Shown here one piece after another: positions 8,627 through 30,225 of a stretch of 44,717 nucleotides of DNA. The stretch is taken from assembly GCA_036609835.1 (NCBI GenBank), contig GCA_036609835.1_4358.1; one strand, 5' to 3'. The stretch is from a phage. The notes below the pieces were generated by a model, which saw only the letters and a list, made by a program, of their open reading frames with translations, was not told where the DNA came from and searched no databases. Within the stretch, counting starts at the first letter, position 1, and each line of letters starts with the position of its first letter. The position numbers were made by a program, and so were the translations under genes.

Positions 8627-8655
8627 TTGCACACCCCAATATAATAGTGTACTAT
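8627..8655 (+). promoter_or_regulatory. Sigma70-type promoter TTGCAC-N17-TACTAT with AATAG-N4-CTATT palindrome, driving the plus-strand insert operon
   Basis: ttgcacaccccaatataatagtgtactat; 19-mer gcacaccccaatataatag is repeated exactly at 18182; same motif in reverse at 29839-29867. Confidence 0.6.
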
Positions 8656-8696
8656 TCACTTACACCAACGATGTTATCCCAAACAGGAGCTACACC

Positions 8697-8888
8697 ATGA
8701 CGGGTATTACTATGTTCTTCTTAATCATTATCGTTTTAGTTTATTTTATTCCATTTCTCGTGGCGCATATGCGCGACCATAAAGCGAAATTAGCGATATT
8801 CATGGCTAATCTGTTTCTTGGATGGGTTCTGCTGCCGTGGGTATTTATTTTAATCTGGGCTTGCAACTCGAATGTCAAAGAGAAGTGA
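8697..8888 (+). CDS. Small membrane protein of the superinfection-immunity (Imm-like) family, 63 aa
   Basis: ATG 8697 after AAACAGGAG; MTGITMFFLIIIVLVYFIPFLVAHMRDHKAKLAIFMANLFLGWVLLPWVFILIWA matches the YF.P..A..R.H....I...N..LGW...W...L.WA signature recalled from memory. Confidence 0.6.
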   Translation: MTGITMFFLIIIVLVYFIPFLVAHMRDHKAKLAIFMANLFLGWVLLPWVFILIWACNSNVKEK

Positions 8889-8925
8889 GCTAGTATAGGA
8901 CAAATCCTAAACACGAGGAATAAAC

Positions 8926-10056
8926 ATGGCCCGGAAGAAAATAACCGACGAACAGTTGCAGGAAGAATTGAACGCCGGTATGAAGAATGTAGATATCGCC
9001 CGTAAATACGGCATCTCAGACCGCGTTATTCGTATCCGTAAAGCGAAGCTGGCTAAGAAAGGCGTAGGCCACGGGCGCGACGTTAGTCACCTTGTACCAG
9101 ACGGTTACAAGATTAAAGGAACGTCGTCCCTGGTGGACGAGTTCGGCAACACTAAGTTGCAATGGGTTAAGACCGACGCTGATGCCGAACGTCAGGTTGA
9201 ATTGATGAAAGCCGTAATAGAGGGCATGAAGTCAGAGATTACGCCCGTTGCGCCTGTTAAACCGGCACGAGCCAAACGTGACGATAAACTACTCAATCTT
9301 TACACGGTATCTGATTTCCATCTCGGTATGCTGGCATGGGCCGATGAGAGCGGCGACGACTGGGACATGAAGATTGCAGAAGACCTGTTCTCTCGGTGGT
9401 TCGACGCGGCGTTTCAGAAAGCACCGGATGCAGGAACAGGAGTTATTAACCTGCTTGGGGACTTCGCACACTTCGATAGTCTTGATGCCGTTACCCCCGA
9501 GTCGCGCCATGTATTAGATGCGGATACTCGCTATCAGAAACTGGTACGTTACATGATTCGTATGGTCCGCCGTGTTGTTGATATGGCGCTGGTTAAGCAT
9601 CACACAGTAAAACTTTTAATCGTTCAAGGTAACCACGACCCTGTTGGCTCCGTATGGCTTGCCGAAATGTTCACGGTTTTATACTCAAACGACAGCCGAG
9701 TGATTGTTGATACGTCGCCGGATGTTTACAAGATGGTGCAACACGGCAAAACGACGCTGTTCTTCCATCACGGGCATAAAGCACGATTCGACGCTATCGA
9801 ACCGGTTATGATTGCCAAGTTCCGTAAAGCGTTCGGCGAGAGTGTTTACAGCTACGCCCACGTAGGCCATCTGCACCACCAGAAGATTGTAGAAAGCCGT
9901 AACATGATTGTTGAGCAACACCGCACCTTAGCGGCTAAAGACGCCTACGCCTCTCGCGGCGGATGGATGTCGGGCCGCAGTGCAAATGTAATTACTTATA
10001 GCGCCGAATATGGCGAGGTCGCACGTTTAACTATTTCACCGGAGATGCTGGGATGA
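8926..10056 (+). CDS. N-terminal HTH domain fused to a calcineurin-like metallophosphoesterase, 376 aa
   Basis: HTH-like NVDIARKYGISDRVIRIRKAK; phosphoesterase motifs SDFHLG, LLGDFAH, VQGNHD, FFHHGH, HVGHLHH in canonical order. Confidence 0.6.
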   Translation: MARKKITDEQLQEELNAGMKNVDIARKYGISDRVIRIRKAKLAKKGVGHGRDVSHLVPDGYKIKGTSSLVDEFGNTKLQWVKTDADAERQVELMKAVIEGMKSEITPVAPVKPARAKRDDKLLNLYTVSDFHLGMLAWADESGDDWDMKIAEDLFSRWFDAAFQKAPDAGTGVINLLGDFAHFDSLDAVTPESRHVLDADTRYQKLVRYMIRMVRRVVDMALVKHHTVKLLIVQGNHDPVGSVWLAEMFTVLYSNDSRVIVDTSPDVYKMVQHGKTTLFFHHGHKARFDAIEPVMIAKFRKAFGESVYSYAHVGHLHHQKIVESRNMIVEQHRTLAAKDAYASRGGWMSGRSANVITYSAEYGEVARLTISPEMLG

Positions 10057-10541
10057 AAGATATTGTAATTTTCGATTTAGACGGGACATTGGCCGACGGT
10101 ACCAATCGCTTACACCTGTTACCAAAAGATAACTACGGAGAAACGTGGGCGTGGAAGCCATTTAACATGGCCTGCAAAGATGACGCTCCGATATACGACA
10201 ATATCCATTTGTGTAGCGTACTGTGGCATTCCGGACTTACTATAATTATCCTTACCGGGCGAAGTGATGACGCTGAGGAGGAGACTCGCGAATGGTTACG
10301 AGAGAATAACGTTAGGTTTGACACGCTAATCATGCGCAGCAAACACGACAACAGAAAAGACATCGTAATTAAAGAAGAGGTGTTGCGTGCTTTCGGACTG
10401 GAAAGAATCTTGTGTGCGTTCGACGACTCTCCAGCGGTAATAAAGCATTTCCGTGACCTCGGCATAACCGCACACGCAGTTACCGAATACGACTGTAACG
10501 GGAACTCTACACACTTAAAACCACACGGGAGCGATAAATAA
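10053..10541 (+). CDS. HAD-family phosphatase resembling the 3'-phosphatase domain of T4 polynucleotide kinase-phosphatase, 162 aa
   Basis: DxDGT motif (IVIFDLDGTLADG), GRSDD, RKDIVIKEEVL and FDDSPAVIKHFRDLGI align by eye with T4 Pnkp C-terminal motifs; ATGA start/stop overlap. Confidence 0.6.
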   Translation: MKDIVIFDLDGTLADGTNRLHLLPKDNYGETWAWKPFNMACKDDAPIYDNIHLCSVLWHSGLTIIILTGRSDDAEEETREWLRENNVRFDTLIMRSKHDNRKDIVIKEEVLRAFGLERILCAFDDSPAVIKHFRDLGITAHAVTEYDCNGNSTHLKPHGSDK

Positions 10542-11095
10542 TGGCTAAGGTAATTATTCTTAATGGCCCTGCGGGTTGCGGGAAAGACACGCTTGCTATG
10601 GCGCTGGTAGAAATGGGCTTTGCGAAAGGAACTACCAGTTTCAAGAATCCAATGTTCAATATTGCTTTGGCAGCGTTAGGCCAGGATGCTTACCACGAAT
10701 TTCTCGACGGCTACGACGACCGGGCGCGGAAAGAAAAACCCGAGGGTTTTCTTAATGGGTTGTCCCGCCGCCGGTTAATGATTGCCATTTCTGAGCAATT
10801 CATTAAACCGGTATTCGGCGATGATTATTTCGGTAAGTATCTTGCTGAAAACTTGCCTGACGGCGACGAAGTTTTTGTAGTGTCCGATGGTGGATTCGCC
10901 AGTGAAGTTGCCCCTATCGTCGCCGCGGGGCATGACGTGCGAATCGTCCGCCTCCATCGTGACGGCTATACGTTCATCTGCGATAGCCGTGGCTATCTGT
11001 ACGATGTTAGTGGTGTAAAAGATTACGACACCTACATCATACCGGGTGACGTTAAATCGAACGTTATAGACATTGCTTTAAAATTAGGTTTGTAA
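10541..11095 (+). CDS. Deoxynucleoside monophosphate kinase-like P-loop kinase (T4 gp1-like), 184 aa
   Basis: Walker A GPAGCGKDT; RRRLMIAISEQF and VFVVSDGGFASEV...VRIVRLHRDG resemble T4 dNMP kinase blocks recalled from memory. Confidence 0.55.
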   Translation: MAKVIILNGPAGCGKDTLAMALVEMGFAKGTTSFKNPMFNIALAALGQDAYHEFLDGYDDRARKEKPEGFLNGLSRRRLMIAISEQFIKPVFGDDYFGKYLAENLPDGDEVFVVSDGGFASEVAPIVAAGHDVRIVRLHRDGYTFICDSRGYLYDVSGVKDYDTYIIPGDVKSNVIDIALKLGL

Positions 11096-17363: not shown

Positions 17364-17627
17364 CTATTCCAGAATATTCCTCACATAATCCTGCAACTGG
17401 AATACTTTCAGACGCAGTTGCCGCACGCATTCGGCGTTCTGAACGTCTATAGCCAAATCCTCGTCAGCATCGCTACTTGGCGCTGCCAGTTTGCACGGAG
17501 GCTGCATCATCGTCGTATCCGGTAATGGAATTAGCGTTTGCGACGGCGCGGGACTTGAGCAGGACGCGAGCATCGTCAAAAGTGCACACGCTGCGACCAG
17601 GCGTTTTAATGTACTTAACGACTTCAC
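17364..17627 (-). CDS. Outer-membrane spanin (Rz1-like lipoprotein), 87 aa
   Basis: Lipobox LTMLASC then Pro-rich SSPAPSQTLIPLPDTTMMQPP; starts inside the i-spanin gene in another frame and extends past its end. Confidence 0.65.
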   Translation of the reverse strand: MKSLSTLKRLVAACALLTMLASCSSPAPSQTLIPLPDTTMMQPPCKLAAPSSDADEDLAIDVQNAECVRQLRLKVFQLQDYVRNILE

Positions 17628-17859
17628 GGGTAATCACCTCTGATTTCGTCTTGCCTTCGTTGTCAGCGGCGGCGGCCTTTGATTCATCCTGCTGCTGCCG
17701 TTGTGTTTTCTTCGCTAACTCAGCCTGTACTTTCTGCTGTTGCTGCGAAACGAGATTCGCCCGGCCTTCGTTCCAACCGCTGCGATACCGGTAGATGCCG
17801 TGTGTGTAAGCCAGGATGATGAAACATGCTCCTGCCACGACAGTTGCTTTAAGATTCAT
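17473..17859 (-). CDS. Inner-membrane spanin (Rz-like), 128 aa
   Basis: N-terminal TM helix ATVVAGACFIILAYTHGIY, then Gln/Lys-rich coiled coil; overlapped by Rz1-like ORF. Confidence 0.65.
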   Translation of the reverse strand: MNLKATVVAGACFIILAYTHGIYRYRSGWNEGRANLVSQQQQKVQAELAKKTQRQQQDESKAAAADNEGKTKSEVITREVVKYIKTPGRSVCTFDDARVLLKSRAVANANSITGYDDDAASVQTGSAK

Positions 17860-18179: not shown

Positions 18180-18208
18180 TTGCACACCCCAATATAATAG
18201 GGTACTAT
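18180..18208 (+). promoter_or_regulatory. Sigma70-type promoter TTGCAC-N17-TACTAT, near-identical to the one at 8627
   Basis: ttgcacaccccaatataatagggtactat followed by AAACAGGAGG RBS and ATG 18236. Confidence 0.6.
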
Positions 18209-18235
18209 TCAGTTAACTTAAACAGGAGGTGAAAA

Positions 18236-18439
18236 ATGTATGCAATTTGCGAAGTAGTTCAAGAGTTCGATGAAGAGTTCGACGGTGACTTGTGCCGGGT
18301 TAAAAAGGTTCTGCAGGTTTTCCCTGACGCAATGTCTGCTTACAAGGCATTAGATATATTTGAACCTGGAAGATACGGGGATTATGACACTGTTCTGAGG
18401 GTTGTCCATGAGCAGGATTTAAACACAAGATTCCGTTGA
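18236..18439 (+). CDS. Hypothetical protein, 67 aa (moron)
   Basis: Opposite strand to flanking head genes; own promoter, strong RBS and downstream terminator; acidic. Confidence 0.6.
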   Translation: MYAICEVVQEFDEEFDGDLCRVKKVLQVFPDAMSAYKALDIFEPGRYGDYDTVLRVVHEQDLNTRFR

Positions 18440-24073: not shown

Positions 24074-24452
24074 AGAATCCCCTTGCATATGCGTCTGACC
24101 ATCAGAGCGCACCAGACGCGCCCTACGCGTCTAAAGGGATTATATAAGTGGATTGGGCGGGATGTACAGAAAAGCCATCCGTAGATGGCTTGATGGTCAG
24201 GATATGGCCTTAAATATGAAGGCTACTGTAACACACGCGGCGAAGAACGTAACGCAGTTTAGCAGCCATTGCACGACCCAATATCGATATGGTTTATTTA
24301 CAATCCAGTCACTTATTTTATCCAGAATATCTTTCATCTCTCGCTCTCCGATCAGTTATACAGTCCGTGTCGTGGTGCTCTTTTACCATCGCCGCCGTAA
24401 TGGTCGTTAGCTACGGCTATAGCCCAGGCGTTCGGGATGATTAGTAGCCTCA

Positions 24453-24653
24453 TCAGCAAATATCTTCCAGTACATCGTAATTATCGCTTAGATACTGGAA
24501 TGCAGCCCCTCTTTCTACAAACTCATCGCCAATGGCGAATGTTCCATCAGAGACATCGATTAGGAGGTCATCACGCCCGATAAACTGGAATACCACCTGA
24601 CCTCCATCATCAAGAAGCGTATGCAGCATAAGTAACAATAGTTTTTTGCTCAT
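24453..24653 (-). CDS. Small acidic protein of unknown function, 66 aa
   Basis: Asp/Glu-rich (LLDDGG, DDLLIDVSDG, DNYDVLEDIC); ATGA overlap with upstream gene. Confidence 0.45.
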   Translation of the reverse strand: MSKKLLLLMLHTLLDDGGQVVFQFIGRDDLLIDVSDGTFAIGDEFVERGAAFQYLSDNYDVLEDIC

Positions 24654-24886
24654 TCCCCGCCCTCCTCTTTAGCAATACGTTGCTCTGTTTTAGTGATACC
24701 GCGGCGCGTGAATAACACCGGGCTTGTCTTAACGTGCGTCATAAGGCGGTTATTATAAATTACATGGCGCTCGCATTTCACGTCTTTGCTGTACTTCGCA
24801 ATCGTCATTTCGTTGATGCCGGTTTGCCGACATGTCTCCGCCATCGTGCCAAATTCTTTAATCAGGTTAGGAATGCTGGTAATCAT
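24650..24886 (-). CDS. Small HTH-like protein, 78 aa
   Basis: ATG 24886 in ATGA overlap with preceding small ORF; MAETCRQTGINEMTIAKY is helix-turn-helix-like. Confidence 0.45.
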   Translation of the reverse strand: MITSIPNLIKEFGTMAETCRQTGINEMTIAKYSKDVKCERHVIYNNRLMTHVKTSPVLFTRRGITKTEQRIAKEEGGE

Positions 24887-25053
24887 CCTAAGAAATTCCT
24901 CGTTGTCCACATCGCATTCGGATATTTGTTATCGCGGTCCTGCACCACGGCGACCATGTTACCACGTTGCACCAGGCAGAAGTGACGCTGTTGCTCGCCG
25001 TTGTAACGGCGCCAGATTGCTTCTTCGATTGCTGCGTTGATGTCGCTGAACAT
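24883..25053 (-). CDS. Small hypothetical protein, 56 aa (not in ORF track)
   Basis: ATG 25053 after GGGG-rich RBS; stop overlaps next start. Confidence 0.3.
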   Translation of the reverse strand: MFSDINAAIEEAIWRRYNGEQQRHFCLVQRGNMVAVVQDRDNKYPNAMWTTRNFLG

Positions 25054-25140
25054 TAGTATCTACCCCACAGAAAACCGACCAATAGCCCAATGAAGTAACT
25101 AAGACCAACCAGACTTATAACAACCTCAAGACTCATGCTC

Positions 25141-25323
25141 TCACCCCACTATCTCATCGCCAAGCCACGCCGTTTCTCGTATATCGTCTACTACACACGC
25201 AGCGTGCTCACGGCTAATTGCAAAAATGTAGAAGCTAAACTTCTTCCCGTCGGCGTCGATGTGGTTAACCGAGTATGGTTTCCACAGGACGCCATCAATA
25301 ACTACCGGTTCAGGCGCTTTCAT
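25141..25323 (-). CDS. Hypothetical early protein, about 60 aa
   Basis: ORF-track ORF 25141..25332; ATG 25323 preferred; in coupled gene chain. Confidence 0.4.
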   Translation of the reverse strand: MKAPEPVVIDGVLWKPYSVNHIDADGKKFSFYIFAISREHAACVVDDIRETAWLGDEIVG

Positions 25324-25507
25324 ACCCATCACCCGAGGCTTTGTTAAGGTTGAAGCGGTTAATCAGTTCACGGCGTGTCTCGTAGAGCGACTCTACCATT
25401 TGCTCGGCTACCGCGATTTTAGTATTCAGGACGTGCATCACGTGGCTAATGTCTACGCCGCTGTTAACGGCCTCAACCATCATCTTTTCGTAGTCGCGGT
25501 CAGTCAT
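25310..25507 (-). CDS. Hypothetical early protein, 65 aa
   Basis: ATG 25507 in ATGA overlap with upstream small ORF. Confidence 0.45.
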   Translation of the reverse strand: MTDRDYEKMMVEAVNSGVDISHVMHVLNTKIAVAEQMVESLYETRRELINRFNLNKASGDGYESA

Positions 25508-25662
25508 TCTTTACGCTCTCCCCACATGCGATTAAGATACTTGTTCTTGTCCGGCCCGGGGAAACTGTTGCGTTTCATCAGTTCCTCGCGTGACGGGAAC
25601 GGGGTGTTACTGACTTTACGGCCTACTCGTAATGGTTGGTTTATTGGGCCTTGTTCGCTCAT
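25504..25662 (-). CDS. Small hypothetical protein, 52 aa (not in ORF track)
   Basis: ATG 25662 in ATGA overlap with 25659..25943; GGAGAGAAGAA RBS. Confidence 0.3.
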   Translation of the reverse strand: MSEQGPINQPLRVGRKVSNTPFPSREELMKRNSFPGPDKNKYLNRMWGERKE

Positions 25663-25943
25663 TTCTTCTCTCCTCTGTATCCGGTTACAGCGCTTCCGCT
25701 GTTAGGTATTCCGTTTATATCATCAACAACTATCGTATCCTTACTTATACAGCGTCTGTAATAATCTTCGGAATTGCGCTCACCTAGATTAAGCACCCAC
25801 TCCATCCCTTCGCCGTCTGCATCCCACGGGCATTGATGTTTAGCCAACACCTGTTTCCAGTCCGCGCGGTCTATGCGAGAAAGTGTCTTATGCTTTCGCG
25901 ACACAACCCTGTAACCCGCGCTAATTAACTGTTGGTTTATCAT
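25659..25943 (-). CDS. Hypothetical early protein, 94 aa
   Basis: ORF with ATGA coupling to both neighbours. Confidence 0.5.
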   Translation of the reverse strand: MINQQLISAGYRVVSRKHKTLSRIDRADWKQVLAKHQCPWDADGEGMEWVLNLGERNSEDYYRRCISKDTIVVDDINGIPNSGSAVTGYRGEKK

Positions 25944-26089
25944 TTCTTCTCTCCTGCATAAGCTGCTTTCAGTGTCTGCATCGCAGCGAACCAGAACGCG
26001 GCCGCGGGGATGCTGTTGCTCAGGTTACTAACTGCGATGCGCGCCATCAGTTGCGCGTCTTTGAATGCTTCGATATCTGTGATTTTCAT
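25940..26089 (-). CDS. Small hypothetical protein, 49 aa (not in ORF track)
   Basis: ATG 26089 with GGAGTAGAGAAG RBS, first gene after promoter 26122-26150. Confidence 0.35.
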   Translation of the reverse strand: MKITDIEAFKDAQLMARIAVSNLSNSIPAAAFWFAAMQTLKAAYAGEKK

Positions 26090-26121
26090 CTTCTCTACTC
26101 CGCTCTCGTTGTCGATGGAGT

Positions 26122-26150
26122 AAATATAATAGGGTCGATGGTAATAGTCA
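26122..26150 (-). promoter_or_regulatory. Sigma70-type promoter TTGACT-N17-TATATT (minus strand)
   Basis: Reverse complement reads ttgactattaccatcgaccctattatatt; just downstream of the lysis-cassette terminator. Confidence 0.5.
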
Positions 26151-26169
26151 ACTAGTCATTGCAGAAAAT

Positions 26170-26206
26170 AGATAAAAAAAATCCCGGCTGGGTCAGGGCC
26201 GGGATA
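26170..26206 (-). terminator. Rho-independent terminator after the endolysin gene
   Basis: atcccggctgggtcagggccgggat stem flanked by an 8-A run on plus strand (T-run on minus). Confidence 0.7.
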
Positions 26207-26269
26207 AAACTGGAGAGTAGAGGGATGGAGCAGGAGGTGATTTAAGTATCGTCGGATTAGTCTTATGTG

Positions 26270-26768
26270 TCAACCTTTCACCGCGCGCCCAATAGCCTCA
26301 GCCTCTTGCCACGGTTTACCGTCGAACAGCGCCAGACGACCGGCGGTACGACGACGCAGGCCTAGTAACGGTTTGCCGTTCTGGTTGATGAACAGCGCCA
26401 GCTTAGCCCGCAGCGTTGCAATATCACCAGAACGCAGTGCCTTACCCGTGCCGGTAGTAGCAGCAATCACACCAGCACCTGCGTTATACACCAGGTCGCA
26501 CACTGCATCGAACTGTGCCTGTGTCAATGAATGGTGTGCTGCTGCGTCAACCGCAGCTACGGCCTTAGCCATATCACGATTAAGTAACAGGAGGCCTTGT
26601 CCTGGAGTGATGGTCTGCCCCGCCTTAACATGCGGGCCATAGCTTCCATACCCAATAGTCAGGTACTTCTCGTTCGGTGTAGCGCGATACGCGGTTCCGC
26701 GGAATCCCTCGAACGCGGCGGTGAATTTGATGCCATTATCTGAAATGTTTCGAGACACGCTTATGTCC
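26270..26768 (-). CDS. Endolysin, T4-lysozyme-like glycoside hydrolase (GH24-type), 166 aa
   Basis: GTG 26768 with GGAGGA RBS; NGIKFTAAFEGFRGTAYRATPNEKYLTIGYG catalytic-region signature. Confidence 0.75.
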
Positions 26769-27008
26769 TCCGTACGACAGCCACGCCTGACGAATCTGGC
26801 GCAGCGCAACTAAAGTGATTAATGTCTCAGGCAGCGTAGGTGACATGCTGCCCTGTAACAGGTGGATACATCCGGCGGCGCAGACAATAGCTGTCAGGAT
26901 ATAGAGCACCCGGCCAAATAGCCCGTCGTCAACGCTGGGATGATACACATTAAACAGCGATGTGCTCCCGATTGCGAGCATACCACCAAACCAGAATAAC
27001 TCATTCAT
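26736..27008 (-). CDS. Two-TM membrane protein (holin/antiholin-like), 90 aa
   Basis: ATG 27008 (ATGAATGA overlap with upstream stop) after GGAGGTGG; two hydrophobic helices. Confidence 0.5.
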   Translation of the reverse strand: MNELFWFGGMLAIGSTSLFNVYHPSVDDGLFGRVLYILTAIVCAAGCIHLLQGSMSPTLPETLITLVALRQIRQAWLSYGGHKRVSKHFR

Positions 27009-27309
27009 TACCACCTCCGCGACGTGCGATGTATTCTCCGGCGACAATGCCAGAGAGACGGGAATAAATTGGCATCCAGAGAATGGCAATGATGAATCCA
27101 AGGCCCGCTATTTCGCGTTCACCTGCGATACCGAACCATTGAGCGGCGAGAGGCGCACCGAATACGGCGCACGCAAAGCCAGTGGCGAGAAAACAGAGAG
27201 CATCGACAGGGCCGGTAATAGTGGCTTTGTGTTGCCGTAAGCCTATTACCCCACCAGCTAATGCGGCAGCGAGAAGCCACCCCGTCACTGTTTCAGTAAA
27301 TTTATCCAA
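27001..27309 (-). CDS. Holin (putative, 3 TM), 102 aa
   Basis: Three hydrophobic segments and charged C-terminus RRGGGNE; directly upstream of endolysin. Confidence 0.6.
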   Translation of the reverse strand: MDKFTETVTGWLLAAALAGGVIGLRQHKATITGPVDALCFLATGFACAVFGAPLAAQWFGIAGEREIAGLGFIIAILWMPIYSRLSGIVAGEYIARRGGGNE

Positions 27310-27384
27310 GATGAATCCTCCAGGTGCGTATTAAGTATGCAGTAACTGGAGGATAGCACGGTTAGGAATTATCTTAATAACGGT

Positions 27385-27678
27385 TTATTTATGACGCCAG
27401 ATGTATTGTCGTCTCTGCGGTTTCGATGGAATATCATCGTATCCCAGCGATTTCCAGTAATTAAATAACCGATTAGCGATTGCCGCGCGTTCCTGTGTTT
27501 TAAACTCTCCCAGGTTCACGGCCCTCCCGTTCTGGAATCCGCAGGCGCGTACCGCTTTACGTCTGGCCTGGACCTCGGGGTACAGCGCGTTACGGCGACG
27601 CTTGTATATCCTGGTGTTTGTTCTCGGTGACAGCGGCGCAATGCCGCTGCGTTTCAGGATGTCAGTTGCTAGTGACAT
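27385..27678 (-). CDS. Basic protein of unknown function (possible DNA-binding), 97 aa
   Basis: ATG 27678 with GGAGA RBS; Arg/Lys-rich (IYKRRRNALYPEVQARRKAVR). Confidence 0.45.
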   Translation of the reverse strand: MSLATDILKRSGIAPLSPRTNTRIYKRRRNALYPEVQARRKAVRACGFQNGRAVNLGEFKTQERAAIANRLFNYWKSLGYDDIPSKPQRRQYIWRHK

Positions 27679-27880
27679 TGCGATACTTCTCCAGAATCTC
27701 ACCTACCCTATCGTATGCGTATTCGTCCGGTATTAATCCGTAACCCAGGTCATTGTCCAGCTTAACTAACATATCGAGGATACCATTCAGATTGGCTTCA
27801 AGTTCCTTATAGTCTTCGTACGATACAAACACCCCTGCGCCATCAGGTTCACCCGTATAATAGTTATATCTCTGCACCAT
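27662..27880 (-). CDS. Hypothetical early protein, 72 aa; paralog of 27880..28155
   Basis: Starts MVQRYNYYTG and contains VSYEDYKELE, matching MVQRYETYG and VSYEDYAKLE in the adjacent ORF. Confidence 0.5.
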   Translation of the reverse strand: MVQRYNYYTGEPDGAGVFVSYEDYKELEANLNGILDMLVKLDNDLGYGLIPDEYAYDRVGEILEKYRNVTSN

Positions 27881-28155
27881 CACTCCACCCCTTCCACATG
27901 TGTAATTGACCCACAGTTCGCGCACTCGACGTAATCAGGGTACTGGCCTTTGTATTTCTGTAACTCGGCTTCCGCTTTTTCTGCCCGTGTCAAAAAGCTG
28001 AAAGCGTCATTGAGTATCTGCACACGCCACGCCATGAGTTCACTGAACTTACGCTCAAGTTTCGCGTAGTCTTCGTAACTTACAAGATTACCCGCATCAC
28101 ATTTGTAAACTTCCAGCTCCCAGTCAAACCCGTATGTTTCGTATCTCTGTACCAT
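27880..28155 (-). CDS. Hypothetical early protein, 91 aa; paralog of 27662..27880, with Cys-rich tail
   Basis: ATG 28155 after AGGAGAAG; C-terminal YVECANCGSITH. Confidence 0.5.
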   Translation of the reverse strand: MVQRYETYGFDWELEVYKCDAGNLVSYEDYAKLERKFSELMAWRVQILNDAFSFLTRAEKAEAELQKYKGQYPDYVECANCGSITHVEGVE

Positions 28156-28157
28156 AA

Positions 28158-28361
28158 TCACTTCTCCTGTTTACCAAGTCGCTTAGGTGAGCAGATAGCG
28201 CGTACCTCTGAATCGTTTGGCTTGTCGCCCTGGAACAGGAAGTGCGCGTTCTCTGCGGCGCGTGCCGCTGACTGGCACGCCTCCATCGAATAAAACGTTT
28301 CTGATGCCGCTAGTTGCATCTGGCCCGCCGACAATACCCAGATAAATAAGATGCTGGTCAT
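28158..28361 (-). CDS. Small protein with signal-peptide-like N-terminus, 67 aa
   Basis: ATG 28361 (ATGA overlap); MTSILFIWVLSAGQMQLAAS then hydrophilic domain. Confidence 0.45.
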   Translation of the reverse strand: MTSILFIWVLSAGQMQLAASETFYSMEACQSAARAAENAHFLFQGDKPNDSEVRAICSPKRLGKQEK

Positions 28362-28717
28362 GCTAATTCCCTGCATTTCTTGCACACCAAATAATCCTCG
28401 TCGGCATCTAGCACCCAATCATGCTCACCTATTTGGCAACCGGATTGCTCTGTCTTAACCCCACTCTCGACCTTGAAGACTTTACCTTTCTCGTCGAAAT
28501 ATGCGGTAGACCATCTATGCACACCCGCCGCCATGTCAATTTGATGCTGTAACTCGCTCTGCAACTCAGCCACCAGCGCCGACGCATCACGTAACTGATT
28601 CTTAAGTGACAGCACCTCATGTGCCAGGTCTTCGCACTGTTGCTTGTATGGGTGGCTATTTACGTGCTGCCGTAACTGGTCAATCAGGTACTCGAATACT
28701 TCGTTTTTAGTGTTCAT
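28358..28717 (-). CDS. Hypothetical early protein with C-terminal Cys/His cluster, 119 aa
   Basis: Helical N-terminus; C-terminal CQIGEHDW...CKKC. Confidence 0.5.
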   Translation of the reverse strand: MNTKNEVFEYLIDQLRQHVNSHPYKQQCEDLAHEVLSLKNQLRDASALVAELQSELQHQIDMAAGVHRWSTAYFDEKGKVFKVESGVKTEQSGCQIGEHDWVLDADEDYLVCKKCRELA

Positions 28718-28866
28718 ATTCTTCGCTCACCCCGTTATAGACGCCGTTGTAGTCCCCGTCGCAGATGAACGTGTAGAGCATATCTTCGTACTCGTCCTGC
28801 AACTCACCTAAAGTTACTTCGCTATAATCTTTCATCTTCTGTCTCTCCTCTAGTTTGTGTAAATGA

Positions 28867-28895
28867 ATAGTAGCCTATTCTATCTTAGTGTGCAA
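28867..28895 (-). promoter_or_regulatory. Sigma70-type promoter TTGCAC-N17-TACTAT (minus strand)
   Basis: Reverse complement reads ttgcacactaagatagaataggctactat. Confidence 0.55.
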
Positions 28896-28964
28896 GTAAA
28901 TTTTATTGGTGTTTGTATTGTTGCATCTCCTGCAATAGTCGCTTCGATTGTTGCGTTTGGTGAA

Positions 28965-29009
28965 ATAGAACAAAAATGAGAAAAATGATACGCTGCTGTG
29001 TAGCAGCGT
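28965..29009 (-). terminator. Rho-independent terminator separating two leftward early units
   Basis: acgctgctgtgtagcagcgt perfect palindrome followed on minus strand by a T-rich run. Confidence 0.55.
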
Positions 29010-29043
29010 AAGTCACAAAGCCAAATAGTAAACTATTGACCTG

Positions 29044-29229
29044 TTACACCTCCGGCGGCTCAGGTAACGGCATCCAGTGCGTTATATCACCGTGATATAA
29101 ACTCTTTGCAGGCCCCCAGTAGCCATCTGAATTAACACGCATAACCTCACAACCGACAAAACCATCAGTTACAAGAACGTATTCATAAGGCTCCGGCATC
29201 CGCTCGCTACACTTAATCCACTCGCCCAT
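29044..29229 (-). CDS. DUF551-like small protein, 61 aa
   Basis: GAGGTGAG RBS; C-terminal DITHWMPLPEPP resembles the DUF551 signature as recalled. Confidence 0.5.
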   Translation of the reverse strand: MGEWIKCSERMPEPYEYVLVTDGFVGCEVMRVNSDGYWGPAKSLYHGDITHWMPLPEPPEV

Positions 29230-29232
29230 ATC

Positions 29233-29376
29233 TCACCTCGTATTCATCGCATACTGCACACCAGCTTTCCACATCCGCCACGCGAGACGCGTCTTAGCGC
29301 TAAGGTACTCGTTCCGCGAGCCCTTGTTGACAGGCAGACCATCTGCAACGGCCCGACGTTCAAATGCTTCTCTCAT
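29233..29376 (-). CDS. Small hypothetical protein, 47 aa (not in ORF track)
   Basis: ATG 29376 in ATGA overlap with upstream ORF; stop 4 nt before DUF551 start. Confidence 0.3.
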   Translation of the reverse strand: MREAFERRAVADGLPVNKGSRNEYLSAKTRLAWRMWKAGVQYAMNTR

Positions 29377-29528
29377 ACCAGAACCTCGCATTCATCCCGA
29401 TACACGAACAATAATGACCCTTTGTACTCAATCATAAAACCATAATGGTTGCTGCTGAACGCCAGAAAAACATCACCTACCGAGATACCGAAATCTATAA
29501 GCCTGCGGTCAGTTATACGGATTCGCAT
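29373..29528 (-). CDS. Small hypothetical protein, 51 aa (not in ORF track)
   Basis: ATG 29528 preceded by GAGGGAGG RBS. Confidence 0.35.
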   Translation of the reverse strand: MRIRITDRRLIDFGISVGDVFLAFSSNHYGFMIEYKGSLLFVYRDECEVLV

Positions 29529-29585
29529 TAACGGCAACCTCCCTCAGAGTCGTCGGCACGAGCATCATGATTAGATGCCGTGGGT

Positions 29586-29804
29586 TTATTTAAAGTAGAT
29601 AGCAAATTTCTTGTAACCCGCTGGCTCGTTACGAAGTCCTTTACCGTTAGCGAAACGTTGTACGTTAACAAAATCATTTTCATCCATTCCGTCGGTGTCG
29701 AACGTAAAGAAGTTGCGCTTGTTCCCGATAATTACGCGCTCTGAGATATCGATGCCGTAAACTTCTTTGATTGCGGAAACTACGCTTGCGGTCGCTTTGT
29801 TCAT
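29586..29804 (-). CDS. First leftward early protein, unknown function, 72 aa
   Basis: ATG 29804 about 35 nt downstream of promoter 29839-29867; AAGGAA RBS. Confidence 0.55.
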   Translation of the reverse strand: MNKATASVVSAIKEVYGIDISERVIIGNKRNFFTFDTDGMDENDFVNVQRFANGKGLRNEPAGYKKFAIYFK

Positions 29805-29838
29805 TTCTAAATTCCTTATGTCTCGTTTCGATAAGTGA

Positions 29839-29867
29839 ATAGTATCCTATTATGTTGGGGTGTGCAA
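29839..29867 (-). promoter_or_regulatory. Leftward early promoter TTGCAC-N17-TACTAT with AATAG-N4-CTATT palindrome
   Basis: Reverse complement ttgcacaccccaacataataggatactat; near-identical to plus-strand promoters at 8627 and 18180. Confidence 0.6.
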
Positions 29868-30225
29868 GATAATAGTTACGTTGCCGTTGTGATTCTTCGG
29901 GGAGGGTTGTGCCTTTATTCTTATTACTTGGTAACTAAAGGGCAGGCTTAAGCCTGCCCAATAATCGTTACATTTTTACGGTTGCGAATCTACGGCACAT
30001 TAAGAAACAGTAGATATTTCAGCGGGTTACTTCTTTAAATGAGATTTAGATACACTTATCCATAAACCCCAAGGCAAGCATCTCAGCTGTCTGGGAGGGG
30101 TTGACGAATCCCTCGGGGAGGGTTCGTCAACTCCGTAATATATACAAGTCCCAAAACCATTATACAAACATGTGTCAAGAACTTTCAATAACATTTTTGT
30201 AAAGATTAAATATTACAGAGATTGG

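What the first reader, a model, noticed from the sequence alone, without database searches (positions are those of the whole stretch)
24400..29810. Leftward early region: about 20 short, translationally coupled ORFs in three promoter/terminator units, with the lysis cassette embedded
Many 40-120-aa ORFs are chained by ATGA or TGATG overlaps. They include a DUF551-like protein, a signal-peptide protein, an acidic 66-aa protein, Cys/His-cluster proteins and several ORFs below the track's size cut-off. The units are bounded by promoters at 29839, 28867 and 26122 and terminators at 28965-29009 and 26170-26206. Such early blocks are where phage anti-defence and host-takeover proteins usually reside. 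The acidic 66-aa protein (24453..24653) is a candidate DNA mimic, and the 97-aa basic protein (27385..27678) just upstream of the holin could be a late-gene regulator.
Basis: inference. Interest (0 to 1): 0.55.

Follow-up and report, generated by a model that had tools for sequence, protein, structure and literature searches.

The report
Kagunavirus small-gene and lysis arm
This is the ordinary leftward small-gene and lysis arm of a Kagunavirus coliphage: three conserved promoter-to-terminator cassettes hold a mix of core and swappable genes, one of which turns out to be an AP2-type DNA-binding protein, and none resembles a known anti-defence protein.

Summary
The window is a complete ~44.7-kb Kagunavirus (Guernseyvirinae) genome. 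There are 22 real minus-strand genes from 29804 to 24197, 87% coding, with 13 overlapping junctions. They lie in three promoter-to-terminator units at the stated coordinates. The block runs slightly past the stated end: a 46-aa gene and a third terminator precede terS.

P1 and P2 belong to a four-copy, near-invariant promoter family, which also drives two accessory islands elsewhere in the genome. The promoter, leader and terminator cassettes are conserved across the genus, and at syntenic sites in one more distant contig with compensatory stem changes. The genes between them are swapped.

"Early" is untested: the one Kagunavirus RNA-seq study classes lysozyme and NinH as "middle". The acidic 66-aa protein is a rare ORFan with no structural match to any DNA mimic. 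The basic 97-aa protein is a shortened AP2-type DNA-binding protein, conserved and syntenic across the subfamily. That makes it a plausible regulator, but its target is unknown and its adjacency to the holin is not conserved. No ORF matches a known anti-defence family.

Verdict: an ordinary region, with modest new annotation value.

The parts
29839..29867 (-). P1: conserved promoter cassette TTGCACACCCCAACATAATAGGATACTAT, followed by the leader ...ATCGAAACGAGA
   Evidence: Exact motif, 4 copies in the window. 91 distinct instances in the sequences held, mostly related contigs. Alignment.
29586..29804 (-). G1, 72 aa. Flexible gene, found in 9 of 43 related contigs. The PHROG label 'internal head protein' is doubtful.
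29528..29683 (-). G1b: remnant ORF. Only its last 17-32 codons match the C-termini of larger genes in relatives. A recombination scar that carries the SD of G2.
29373..29528 (-). G2, 51 aa (phrog_30395), variable
29233..29376 (-). G3, 47 aa, basic, core gene (phrog_15836). ATGA overlap with G2.
29044..29229 (-). G4, 61 aa, DUF551 protein (core, divergent)
   Evidence: Pfam PF04448 E=2e-16
28989..29010 (-). T1: intrinsic terminator, 9-bp stem plus U-tract
   Evidence: -15.8 kcal/mol, z -5.1. Syntenic copy with stem changes in L079.
28867..28895 (-). P2: second copy of the conserved promoter cassette
28707..28835 (-). G5, 42 aa, very acidic (net -11), flexible
28358..28717 (-). G6, 119 aa, predicted coiled-coil plus C-terminal C..H..CxxC. 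Core but fast-diverging (31-84% identity).
28158..28361 (-). G7, 67 aa, hydrophobic N-terminus (signal-peptide-like), 2 Cys. Core, about 99% conserved.
27880..28155 (-). G8, 91 aa, acidic. N-terminal domain is paralogous to G9.
   Evidence: 38% over 50 aa, E=4e-6
27662..27880 (-). G9, 72 aa, acidic, tandem paralogue of G8, rare
27385..27678 (-). G10, 97 aa, pI 11.3. Shortened stand-alone AP2-type DNA-binding protein. Subfamily-wide core gene.
27315..27354 (-). Holin leader hairpin: the 9-bp arms AUCCUCCAG/CUGGAGGAU sequester the holin SD
27001..27309 (-). G11, holin (phrog_2359), TTG start
26736..27008 (-). G12, second holin-like protein (phrog_2508)
26270..26758 (-). G13, endolysin (Phage_lysozyme PF00959)
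   Evidence: (E=6e-26)
26173..26205 (-). T2: intrinsic terminator (8-bp stem, U8). Preceded by a C/U-rich stretch and a promoter-like site at 26273-26245.
26123..26151 (-). P3: TTGACT-17-TATATT, with the same ATCGACAACGAGA leader motif
25940..26089 (-). G14, 49 aa (phrog_2180), core
25659..25943 (-). G15, 94 aa. Rare accessory gene: 0 of 43 related contigs, 6 clusters in the whole protein database.
25504..25662 (-). G16, 52 aa, DUF2737
   Evidence: E=7e-9
25310..25507 (-). G17, 65 aa (phrog_1402; its counterpart in EC3-1 is annotated NinZ-like)
25141..25323 (-). G18, 60 aa (phrog_10509)
24883..25053 (-). G19, 56 aa (phrog_5407)
24650..24886 (-). G20, 78 aa, NinH-like (Fis-type) protein
   Evidence: Pfam PF06322 E=2.5e-4, below the cut-off; phrog_268; relatives' annotation
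24453..24653 (-). G21, 66 aa, acidic ORFan. Real gene, rare accessory.
24197..24337 (-). G22, 46 aa, hydrophobic. Rare; coding status is less certain.
24172..24191 (-). T3: conserved terminator that closes the block (compensatory A-U to C-G change in relatives)
24114..24168 (-). Conserved promoter-like site (TGTACA-18-TATAAT) and 5' hairpin in front of terS: the start of the packaging/morphogenesis operon

Best explanation
The interval is the leftward accessory-plus-lysis arm of a virulent Kagunavirus. It lies between the divergent control region (~29.85-30.28 kb) and the terminase genes.

It consists of three expression cassettes, probably read by host RNA polymerase (inferred). Each starts with a genus-conserved sigma-70-type promoter and a shared 5' leader, and ends with a conserved intrinsic terminator:
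- P1-T1 carries G1-G4.
- P2-T2 carries G5-G10 and the holin/holin/endolysin trio.
- P3-T3 carries G14-G22.

Within a cassette the genes are chained by overlapping stop/start codons, so they are probably translated as coupled strings (inferred).

The promoter/leader and terminator elements act as fixed scaffolds, and probably as recombination anchors. Between them sit two kinds of gene. Core small genes are kept: G3, DUF551 G4, G6, G7, the AP2-type G10, the lysis genes, and the nin-like set G14 and G16-G20. Flexible genes are swapped in and out: G1, G2, G5, G8/G9, G15, G21, G22.

Holin output is additionally throttled by a TTG start and an invariant hairpin that hides its Shine-Dalgarno (inferred).

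G10 is a small AP2-derived DNA-binding protein and the best candidate in the block for a transcription regulator. The flexible genes are the best candidates for host-interaction or anti-defence roles, but none is identifiable.

Shown: gene reality, cassette structure, conservation and mosaicism, and family assignments. Inferred: use of host RNAP, timing, coupling, and all functions of the unnamed ORFs.
For: - Identity and layout.
- Genes, RBSs and overlaps.
- Family hits.
- Promoter family: 4 exact copies in the window; 72 related viral stretches and 91 distinct instances, with near-invariant -35, spacer, -10 and leader but different first genes downstream.
- The same promoter fronts an Imm/PNKP-type accessory island and an acidic-ORF island elsewhere in the genome.
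- Terminators fold significantly better than shuffles.
- T2/P3 and T3/PterS are conserved whatever the flanking genes, with compensatory stem changes.
- The whole scaffold recurs in a distant Jerseyvirus-like contig.
- Presence/absence split into core and flexible genes.
- G10 as AP2: the family profile hits a bona fide multi-AP2 protein. The broad profile hits only AP2 domains in PDB (WRI1 E=5e-5, TEM1 E=0.003). 18 of 61 members hit Pfam AP2. The model core is a beta-hairpin plus helix. Distant members are syntenic.
- Holin leader hairpin.
Against: - No transcription data exist for this phage. P1/P2 match the sigma-70 consensus only moderately (3/6 and 4/6), and their 30-nt conservation exceeds what RNAP alone needs, so another factor may be involved.
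- The generic promoter scan is no better than chance.
- Terminator efficiency is unknown. Read-through could fuse the units with each other and with the terminase operon.
- G10 itself gives no direct Pfam AP2 hit and no significant Foldseek hit. It lacks the first AP2 strand, so DNA binding is inferred from its family.
- Sampling of distal genes is limited by locus length.
Confidence: 0.72

Rival explanations
1. The block is an immediate-early host-takeover and anti-defence region. The acidic 66-aa G21 acts as a DNA mimic (Ocr/ArdA/gp5.9-like) that blocks restriction or RecBCD-type nucleases.
For: - The flexible, rapidly exchanged genes sit behind conserved promoters.
- Several products are small and acidic: G5 net -11, G8, G9, G21 net -9.
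- G21 is under purifying selection and has a strong SD.
- The same promoter family drives clearly accessory functions elsewhere, Imm and PNKP-type.
Against: - G21 has no significant fold match in PDB or BFVD, no family hit and no sequence match in PDB.
- Its model is beta-rich with a hydrophobic N-terminus, and only one of five models exceeds pLDDT 70.
- It sits last-but-one in the most promoter-distal unit, next to terS, which is not where immediate-early inhibitors are usually placed.
- Kagunavirus isolates are highly RM-sensitive (PMC11990801), although none of those isolates carries G21.
- In the K1B4 time-course, lysozyme and NinH were not early.
Confidence: 0.1
2. A delayed-early or middle 'nin-Q-lysis-like' reading. 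The units are expressed together with, and read through into, the terminase and structural operon. The AP2-type G10 is the phage's late-gene activator or antiterminator, acting at the weak-minus-35 promoter and hairpin before terS and/or at the conserved promoter cassettes.
For: - The block has the same strand and is contiguous with terS/terL.
- It contains nin-region homologues upstream of packaging genes: DUF2737, NinH-like, NinZ-like.
- K1B4 RNA-seq classes lysozyme and NinH with the structural genes as 'middle'.
- G10 is a core, syntenic DNA-binding-type protein in a phage without its own RNAP.
- PterS has a perfect -10 but a poor -35, and it is conserved.
Against: - Three conserved terminators separate the units, and T3 separates the block from terS.
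- G10's adjacency to the holin is not conserved.
- G10 shows no similarity to Q or other known late regulators.
- No G10 target motif has been identified.
- The K1B4 study has coarse time points and did not list its early genes.
Confidence: 0.22
3. G10 is a CasPR-like silencer: an AP2 protein that binds sites in host (defence) genes and blocks their transcription, rather than regulating phage genes.
For: Phage AP2-domain proteins were recently shown to silence cas genes by binding coding sequences (bioRxiv 10.64898/2026.02.23.707548). G10 belongs to an AP2-derived family.
Against: - CasPRs are defined by a CapR zinc-finger plus AP2, and both are required for activity. G10 has one Cys and no CapR module.
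- CasPRs are found in Bacillota prophages.
- G10 is a core gene at about 90% identity across Kagunavirus. That fits a housekeeping phage role better than an arms-race effector.
- The phage is virulent, so silencing pre-made defences would act late.
Confidence: 0.06

Closest known systems
The same region in sequenced Kagunavirus/Jerseyvirus phages (e.g. vB_Eco_K-02, EC3-1, vB_EcoM_SHAK7858, vB_VIPECOMC04, K1H, LotteLoewe/Bas71)
   Same: 72-76% of the block aligns at 87-91% identity in the best hits. Gene order is the same: small ORFs, two holins, endolysin, DUF2737/NinH-like genes, then terS/terL. Almost all genes are annotated 'hypothetical protein'.
   Different: No record covers at least 80% of the block. 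This genome has its own combination of flexible genes: G1, G5, G9, G15, G21, G22. G15 is absent from all 43 related contigs compared, and G21 occurs in only 10 phage records.
Lambdoid nin region followed by the lysis genes (lambda/P22 ninA-ninZ, Q, S-R-Rz)
   Same: A string of tiny overlapping ORFs of mostly unknown, dispensable function on one strand. It includes NinH-like (a Fis-type DNA bender, PMC7166090), DUF2737 and NinZ-like genes, placed next to holin and endolysin.
   Different: The order is inverted: here the lysis genes precede the nin-like genes. There is no Q antiterminator homologue. The spanins lie about 9 kb away. The NinH Pfam score is below the curated cut-off. The phage is virulent, and the unit boundaries are its own promoter family.
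AP2/ERF DNA-binding domain (Pfam PF00847), as found in phage HNH homing endonucleases and in plant transcription factors
   Same: The G10 family profile matches only AP2 domains in PDB. It shares the GV...W/YRA...LGxFxTxExAAxAY signature and the beta-sheet-plus-helix core.
   Different: G10 is stand-alone, with no HNH domain. The Kagunavirus version has lost the first strand. The family has its own invariant N-terminal MSLATDILKR and C-terminal DIPxKPxxRxY motifs. G10 alone does not reach any Pfam threshold.
CasPR anti-CRISPR transcriptional silencers (CapR + AP2)
   Same: Small phage-encoded AP2-type DNA binders.
   Different: G10 has no CapR zinc-finger, comes from a different host phylum, and is a core gene rather than an acr-locus gene.
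DNA-mimic anti-restriction proteins (Ocr, ArdA, T7 gp5.9)
   Same: G21 is small and acidic (pI 4.05).
   Different: There is no structural or sequence similarity. The predicted fold is beta-rich, the N-terminus is hydrophobic, and acidic residues make up only about 20% of the protein.

Membership tests
Kagunavirus (Guernseyvirinae) leftward small-gene/lysis arm | Nucleotide similarity and synteny with reference Kagunavirus genomes | tested here: met
   The top-listed records align at 87-95% identity over 65-76% of the block. Structural genes align at up to 92% coverage and 94.8% identity. Gene order is the same.
DUF551 (PF04448), G4 | Pfam score above the gathering cut-off | tested here: met
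   61 bits against a cut-off of 22, E=2e-16.
Phage lysozyme / holins (G11-G13) | Profile match to endolysin and holin families | tested here: met
   PF00959 at 91.7 bits. phrog_2359 and phrog_2508 holins at E=4e-29 and 3e-33.
NinH (PF06322), G20 | Pfam score above the gathering cut-off (29.8 bits) | tested here: inconclusive
   21.3 bits, E=2.5e-4, covering profile positions 7-56 of 60. Relatives are annotated NinH family. DNA bending was not tested.
AP2 DNA-binding domain (PF00847), G10 | Significant profile similarity to AP2 domains | tested here: met
   Met at family level. The A5 profile against PDB gives WRI1 5.3e-5 and TEM1 2.7e-3, and all 4 hits are AP2. 18 of 61 members hit PF00847. 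The A3 profile hits a multi-AP2 protein at 1.2e-8. G10 alone gives no Pfam hit.
AP2 DNA-binding domain (PF00847), G10 | Three-stranded sheet packed on a helix | tested here: inconclusive
   The model has two strands (43-49, 52-59) plus a helix (62-78) at pLDDT 78-88. The first strand is deleted relative to longer family members. Foldseek places 1gcc at rank 2 but with E=1.5.
AP2 DNA-binding domain (PF00847), G10 | Sequence-specific DNA binding | not testable with these tools
   Needs EMSA or ChIP.
CasPR (CapR + AP2 silencers), G10 | CapR zinc-finger domain with a conserved Cys cluster | tested here: not met
   G10 has a single Cys and no extra domain.
DNA-mimic anti-restriction proteins (Ocr/ArdA/gp5.9), G21 | Structural or sequence similarity to a known mimic | tested here: not met
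   There is no hit at E<=0.001 in PDB (Foldseek best E=1.4), BFVD (best 0.29) or PDB sequences. The model is of medium confidence (pLDDT 73), so this is not absolute.
DNA-mimic anti-restriction proteins (Ocr/ArdA/gp5.9), G21 | Inhibition of a DNA-binding defence enzyme | not testable with these tools
   Needs plating and biochemical assays.
Lar restriction-alleviation (PF14354), G8 | Pfam score above the cut-off; zinc-ribbon with two CxxC motifs | tested here: not met
   14.4 bits against a cut-off of 28.6, E=0.047. Only one CxxC is present.
Lambda Q-type late antiterminator, G10 | Homology to Q families; conserved position directly upstream of a late promoter and the holin | tested here: not met
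   There is no family hit. An HslV-like gene intervenes in relatives. No promoter-terminator pair lies in the 75-nt gap.
Immediate-early transcription class | Transcripts peak in the first minutes of infection | not testable with these tools
   The only indirect evidence is the K1B4 time-course, which classes lysozyme and NinH as 'middle'. Its supplements did not list the phage early genes.

The most novel reading that the evidence does not exclude
The near-invariant ~45-nt promoter/leader cassette is present 4-5 times per genome. It stands in front of every accessory island, including the lysis unit, and is conserved far beyond what sigma-70 needs. It could be the operator of a dedicated phage switch, with the minimal stand-alone AP2 protein G10 (or the neighbouring early HTH protein) binding it to turn all accessory islands on or off together. 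That would be a previously undescribed AP2-based temporal regulator in a virulent coliphage.
Probability: 0.12. Interest if true: 0.55.

Novelty: new member of a known kind. Interest (0 to 1): 0.27.

Why it matters
The value is mostly in annotation.

- It shows that more than 100 deposited Kagunavirus/Jerseyvirus genomes share a fixed promoter-terminator scaffold, which defines where accessory genes are exchanged.
- It splits the roughly 20 'hypothetical' genes into core and flexible sets. That tells experimenters which ORFs to test first for host-interaction or anti-defence roles: G1, G2, G5, G8/G9, G15, G21, G22.
- It gives phrog_9632/phrog_4947 (G10) a fold-level identity as an AP2-derived DNA binder. 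G10 is the obvious first target for working out how these RNAP-less virulent phages time their genes.

Kagunavirus phages are used as small engineering chassis and therapy candidates, so knowing the promoters, terminators and dispensable slots has practical use. Nothing here overturns current understanding.

Tried and rejected
- **Rfam (E<=1)** on 23.5-30.4 kb gave only two sub-threshold hits at terminator T2.
- **NCBIfam** gave nothing for any of 20 proteins.
- **phmmer against PDB sequences** for G10, G21 and G20 gave only noise.
- **The narrow G10 profile (A3) against PDB** gave nothing. Only the broadened profile A5 worked.
- **Foldseek** gave no significant matches for the G10 model (PDB) or the G21 model (PDB and BFVD).
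- **The large repetitive hits** in the exhaustive search (P0061, P0077, P0079, P0107) look like compositional artefacts and were excluded.
- **The K1B4 RNA-seq supplements** hold the host annotation, not phage expression classes, so the early genes could not be mapped.
- **Literature searches** for promoter or timing descriptions in Jerseyvirinae/Jerseyvirus found nothing relevant to this block.
- **Rejected ideas:**
  - G8 as Lar-like: below the cut-off, with only a single CxxC.
  - G10 as CasPR: no CapR domain.
  - G10 as a Q analogue: its position is not conserved.
  - The PHROG label 'internal head protein' for G1: it is a flexible gene in the accessory arm, present in 9 of 43 contigs.
  - EC3-1's 'host nuclease inhibitor' label for the G18 homologue: no supporting evidence is given in the record, and no family supports it.
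  - ORF 29683-29528 as a gene: it is a remnant.

Full report
**What the window is.** The 44,717-bp window is a complete siphovirus genome of the genus Kagunavirus (Guernseyvirinae; K1G/K1H-like coliphages). The flagged block aligns to more than 400 phage records, best at about 87-95% identity, but no record covers 80% of it. The structural half aligns at up to 92% coverage and 94.8% identity.

The layout is as follows. A divergent control region lies at ~29.85-30.28 kb. Rightward of it is an HTH gene and the replication module. Leftward is the flagged block, followed on the same strand by terS (24073-23528), terL, portal, head and tail genes.

**Checking the observation.** I rebuilt the minus-strand gene models from start codons, Shine-Dalgarno sequences and stop/start junctions. 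There are 22 genes between 29804 and 24197, and they cover 87% of the span. The junctions comprise 7 ATGA overlaps, 1 TGATG, 5 longer overlaps and 2 gaps of 2-3 nt.

Twenty of the 22 products hit PHROG families, mostly at E of 1e-18 to 1e-54 (weakest G9 at 1e-5). The other two (G21, G22) have annotated homologues in relatives. G21 shows a coding-type substitution pattern: 11 of 17 differences fall at third positions.

Pfam confirms DUF551 (G4), DUF2737 (G16), phage lysozyme (G13) and a sub-threshold NinH match (G20). PHROGs confirm the two holins. One ORF (29683-29528) is only a remnant: just its C-terminal 17-32 codons match larger genes in relatives.

**Regulatory elements.** This motif occurs four times in the genome with no mismatches and a shared spacer. 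The other two copies (8627 and 18180, + strand) front accessory islands embedded antisense in the structural module.

One of those islands encodes a superinfection-immunity protein and PNKP-type end-healing enzymes. A collection scan found the extended motif in 72 stretches of 41-45-kb Kagunavirus-like contigs. In the 91 distinct instances, the -35, spacer, -10 and a leader (ATCGAAACGAGA) are nearly invariant, while the first gene downstream differs from phage to phage.

P3 (26151-26123, TTGACT-17-TATATT) shares the leader motif and is conserved. Terminators T1 (29010-28989) and T2 (26205-26173) fold far better than shuffled sequence.

T3, a promoter-like site (TGTACA-18-TATAAT) and a 5' hairpin before terS are conserved whatever gene lies upstream, and one stem pair shows a compensatory change. 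The whole scaffold recurs at syntenic positions in a more distant Jerseyvirus-like contig: a T1-like terminator, a P2-like promoter, T2, P3, T3 and PterS, with altered but still paired terminator stems.

A generic sigma-70 scan finds no more sites than chance. The case for these promoters therefore rests on conservation.

**Core and flexible genes.** I compared the ORFs with 43 related contigs and records.
- The core set, present wherever the region was sampled, is G3, G4, G6, G7, G10, the lysis genes, G14 and G16-G20.
- The flexible set is G1 and G5 (9 contigs each), G2, G8, G9 (1), G15 (0), G21 (1) and G22 (1).
- G8 and G9 are tandem paralogues.

**The acidic 66-aa protein (G21).**
- It is acidic (pI 4.05) but has a hydrophobic N-terminus.
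- It has only 14 close homologue clusters and occurs in 10 phage records.
- It has no PHROG, Pfam or NCBIfam hit.
- Its AlphaFold model is beta-rich with pLDDT 73, and the other four models score 51-61.
- It has no significant match in PDB or BFVD.

The DNA-mimic idea therefore rests on charge alone. BASEL Kagunavirus isolates are highly sensitive to restriction-modification (PMC11990801), although none of them carries G21.

**The basic 97-aa protein (G10).**
- Direct searches gave nothing. The model has a confident beta-hairpin-plus-helix core.
- An exhaustive profile search found 71 representative relatives, including a protein with bona fide AP2 domains.
- A broadened family profile hit only AP2/ERF domains in PDB: WRI1 at 5.3e-5 and TEM1 at 2.7e-3. 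18 of 61 members hit Pfam AP2.
- Longer members show the full AP2 signature. The Kagunavirus version has lost the first strand.
- Distant members (~40% identity) occupy the same slot upstream of the holins in Jerseyvirus-like genomes.

G10 is therefore a subfamily-wide, stand-alone, AP2-derived DNA-binding-type protein, and a plausible regulator. It is not always adjacent to the holin and has no Q-like features. It lacks the CapR domain that defines the AP2-containing CasPR silencers.

**Is the block early?** This is unproven. The one Kagunavirus time-course (vB_Eco_K1B4, PMC12645636) classes only four genes as early, including the HTH gene. It puts lysozyme and NinH in the large 'middle' class. 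Its time points are coarse, and the supplements do not list the phage classes.

Two things favour early or constitutive expression by host RNA polymerase: the sigma-70-like promoters, and their use in front of accessory islands. But read-through and middle timing cannot be excluded.

**Verdict.** The region is the ordinary, already-sequenced-many-times accessory and lysis arm of a Kagunavirus, resembling a rearranged lambdoid nin/lysis region. The new items are:
- the defined promoter/terminator scaffold;
- the split into core and flexible genes;
- the SD-sequestering holin leader;
- the AP2 assignment of G10.

No known anti-defence protein was found.

Noticed in passing
window 27315-27354 (-), within the 75-nt gap before the holin start at 27309: An invariant 9-bp inverted repeat (AUCCUCCAG...CUGGAGGAU) pairs the holin's Shine-Dalgarno with an upstream anti-SD. 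It folds at -18.8 kcal/mol (z -3.1). Together with the TTG start it probably limits holin translation. The ~70-nt leader is identical whichever gene lies upstream, and it is essentially invariant in 38 instances. The single arm change (A to G) keeps a G-U pair.
   Followed up: partly
window 26173-26273 (-): A promoter-like site (TTGACA-17-GATACT, 10/12) at the very end of the endolysin gene is followed by a C/U-rich anti-SD-like stretch (CACCUCCUGCUCCAUCCCUCUACUCUCC) and terminator T2. This could be a ~65-nt small RNA or a conserved 3' UTR. Rfam gives weak sub-threshold hits to anti-SD-type sRNAs (RF02278, 24.7 bits against a cut-off of 50). The arrangement is conserved in a distant relative (L079), with terminator-stem covariation.
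   Followed up: partly
window 8627-11095 (+): A third copy of the conserved promoter drives an island antisense to the tail genes. It encodes a superinfection-immunity protein (PF14373, E=1e-13), a metallophosphoesterase-like protein with an N-terminal HTH-like segment, a PNKP-type HAD phosphatase (PF25109, E=4e-20) and a P-loop protein. This may be a nucleic-acid end-healing module of the kind phages use against anticodon nucleases. It is arguably a better anti-defence candidate than anything in the flagged block.
   Followed up: partly
window 18180-18439 (+): A fourth promoter copy drives a lone acidic 67-aa ORF inside the head-gene module. Its first codons resemble those of G5.
   Followed up: no
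window 29940-30221 (-): Upstream of P1 lies the strongest sigma-70-like site in the area (TTGAAA-18-TATAAT, 30188-30159). It is followed by a 14-bp-stem hairpin (30131-30099) and a strong terminator (29959-29940, -21 kcal/mol). This could be a short leftward transcript. The central ~200 nt is an alternative allele shared by only 2 of the related loci. Other phages carry a different segment of similar length, annotated there as two tiny ORFs.
   Followed up: partly
window 17364-17859 (-): An Rz/Rz1-like spanin pair lies about 9 kb away from the holin-endolysin cassette, among the head genes. It consists of a 128-aa protein with an N-terminal TM segment and an embedded 87-aa protein with a lipobox-like LASC. 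There is no Pfam hit, so the assignment is from sequence features only.
   Followed up: no
window 24114-24168 (-): A conserved promoter-like site with a perfect -10 but a poor -35 (TGTACA-18-TATAAT) is followed by a 7-bp-stem hairpin (AGACGCG-TAGGG-CGCGTCT) immediately before terS. It is a candidate activator-dependent late promoter or a packaging-related site.
   Followed up: partly
window 27662-28155 (-): G8 and G9 are tandem paralogues that share an N-terminal ~45-aa domain (MVQRY...VSYEDY...LE). Relatives carry one to two copies of variable length, which suggests local duplication and domain shuffling.
   Followed up: partly
L002 (OR594183.1, vB_EcoM_SHAK7858): This Kagunavirus-like record is filed in GenBank under Autographiviridae/Kayfunavirus, which looks like a taxonomy mislabel. 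It also has an HNH endonuclease gene inserted between the holin and the endolysin.
   Followed up: no
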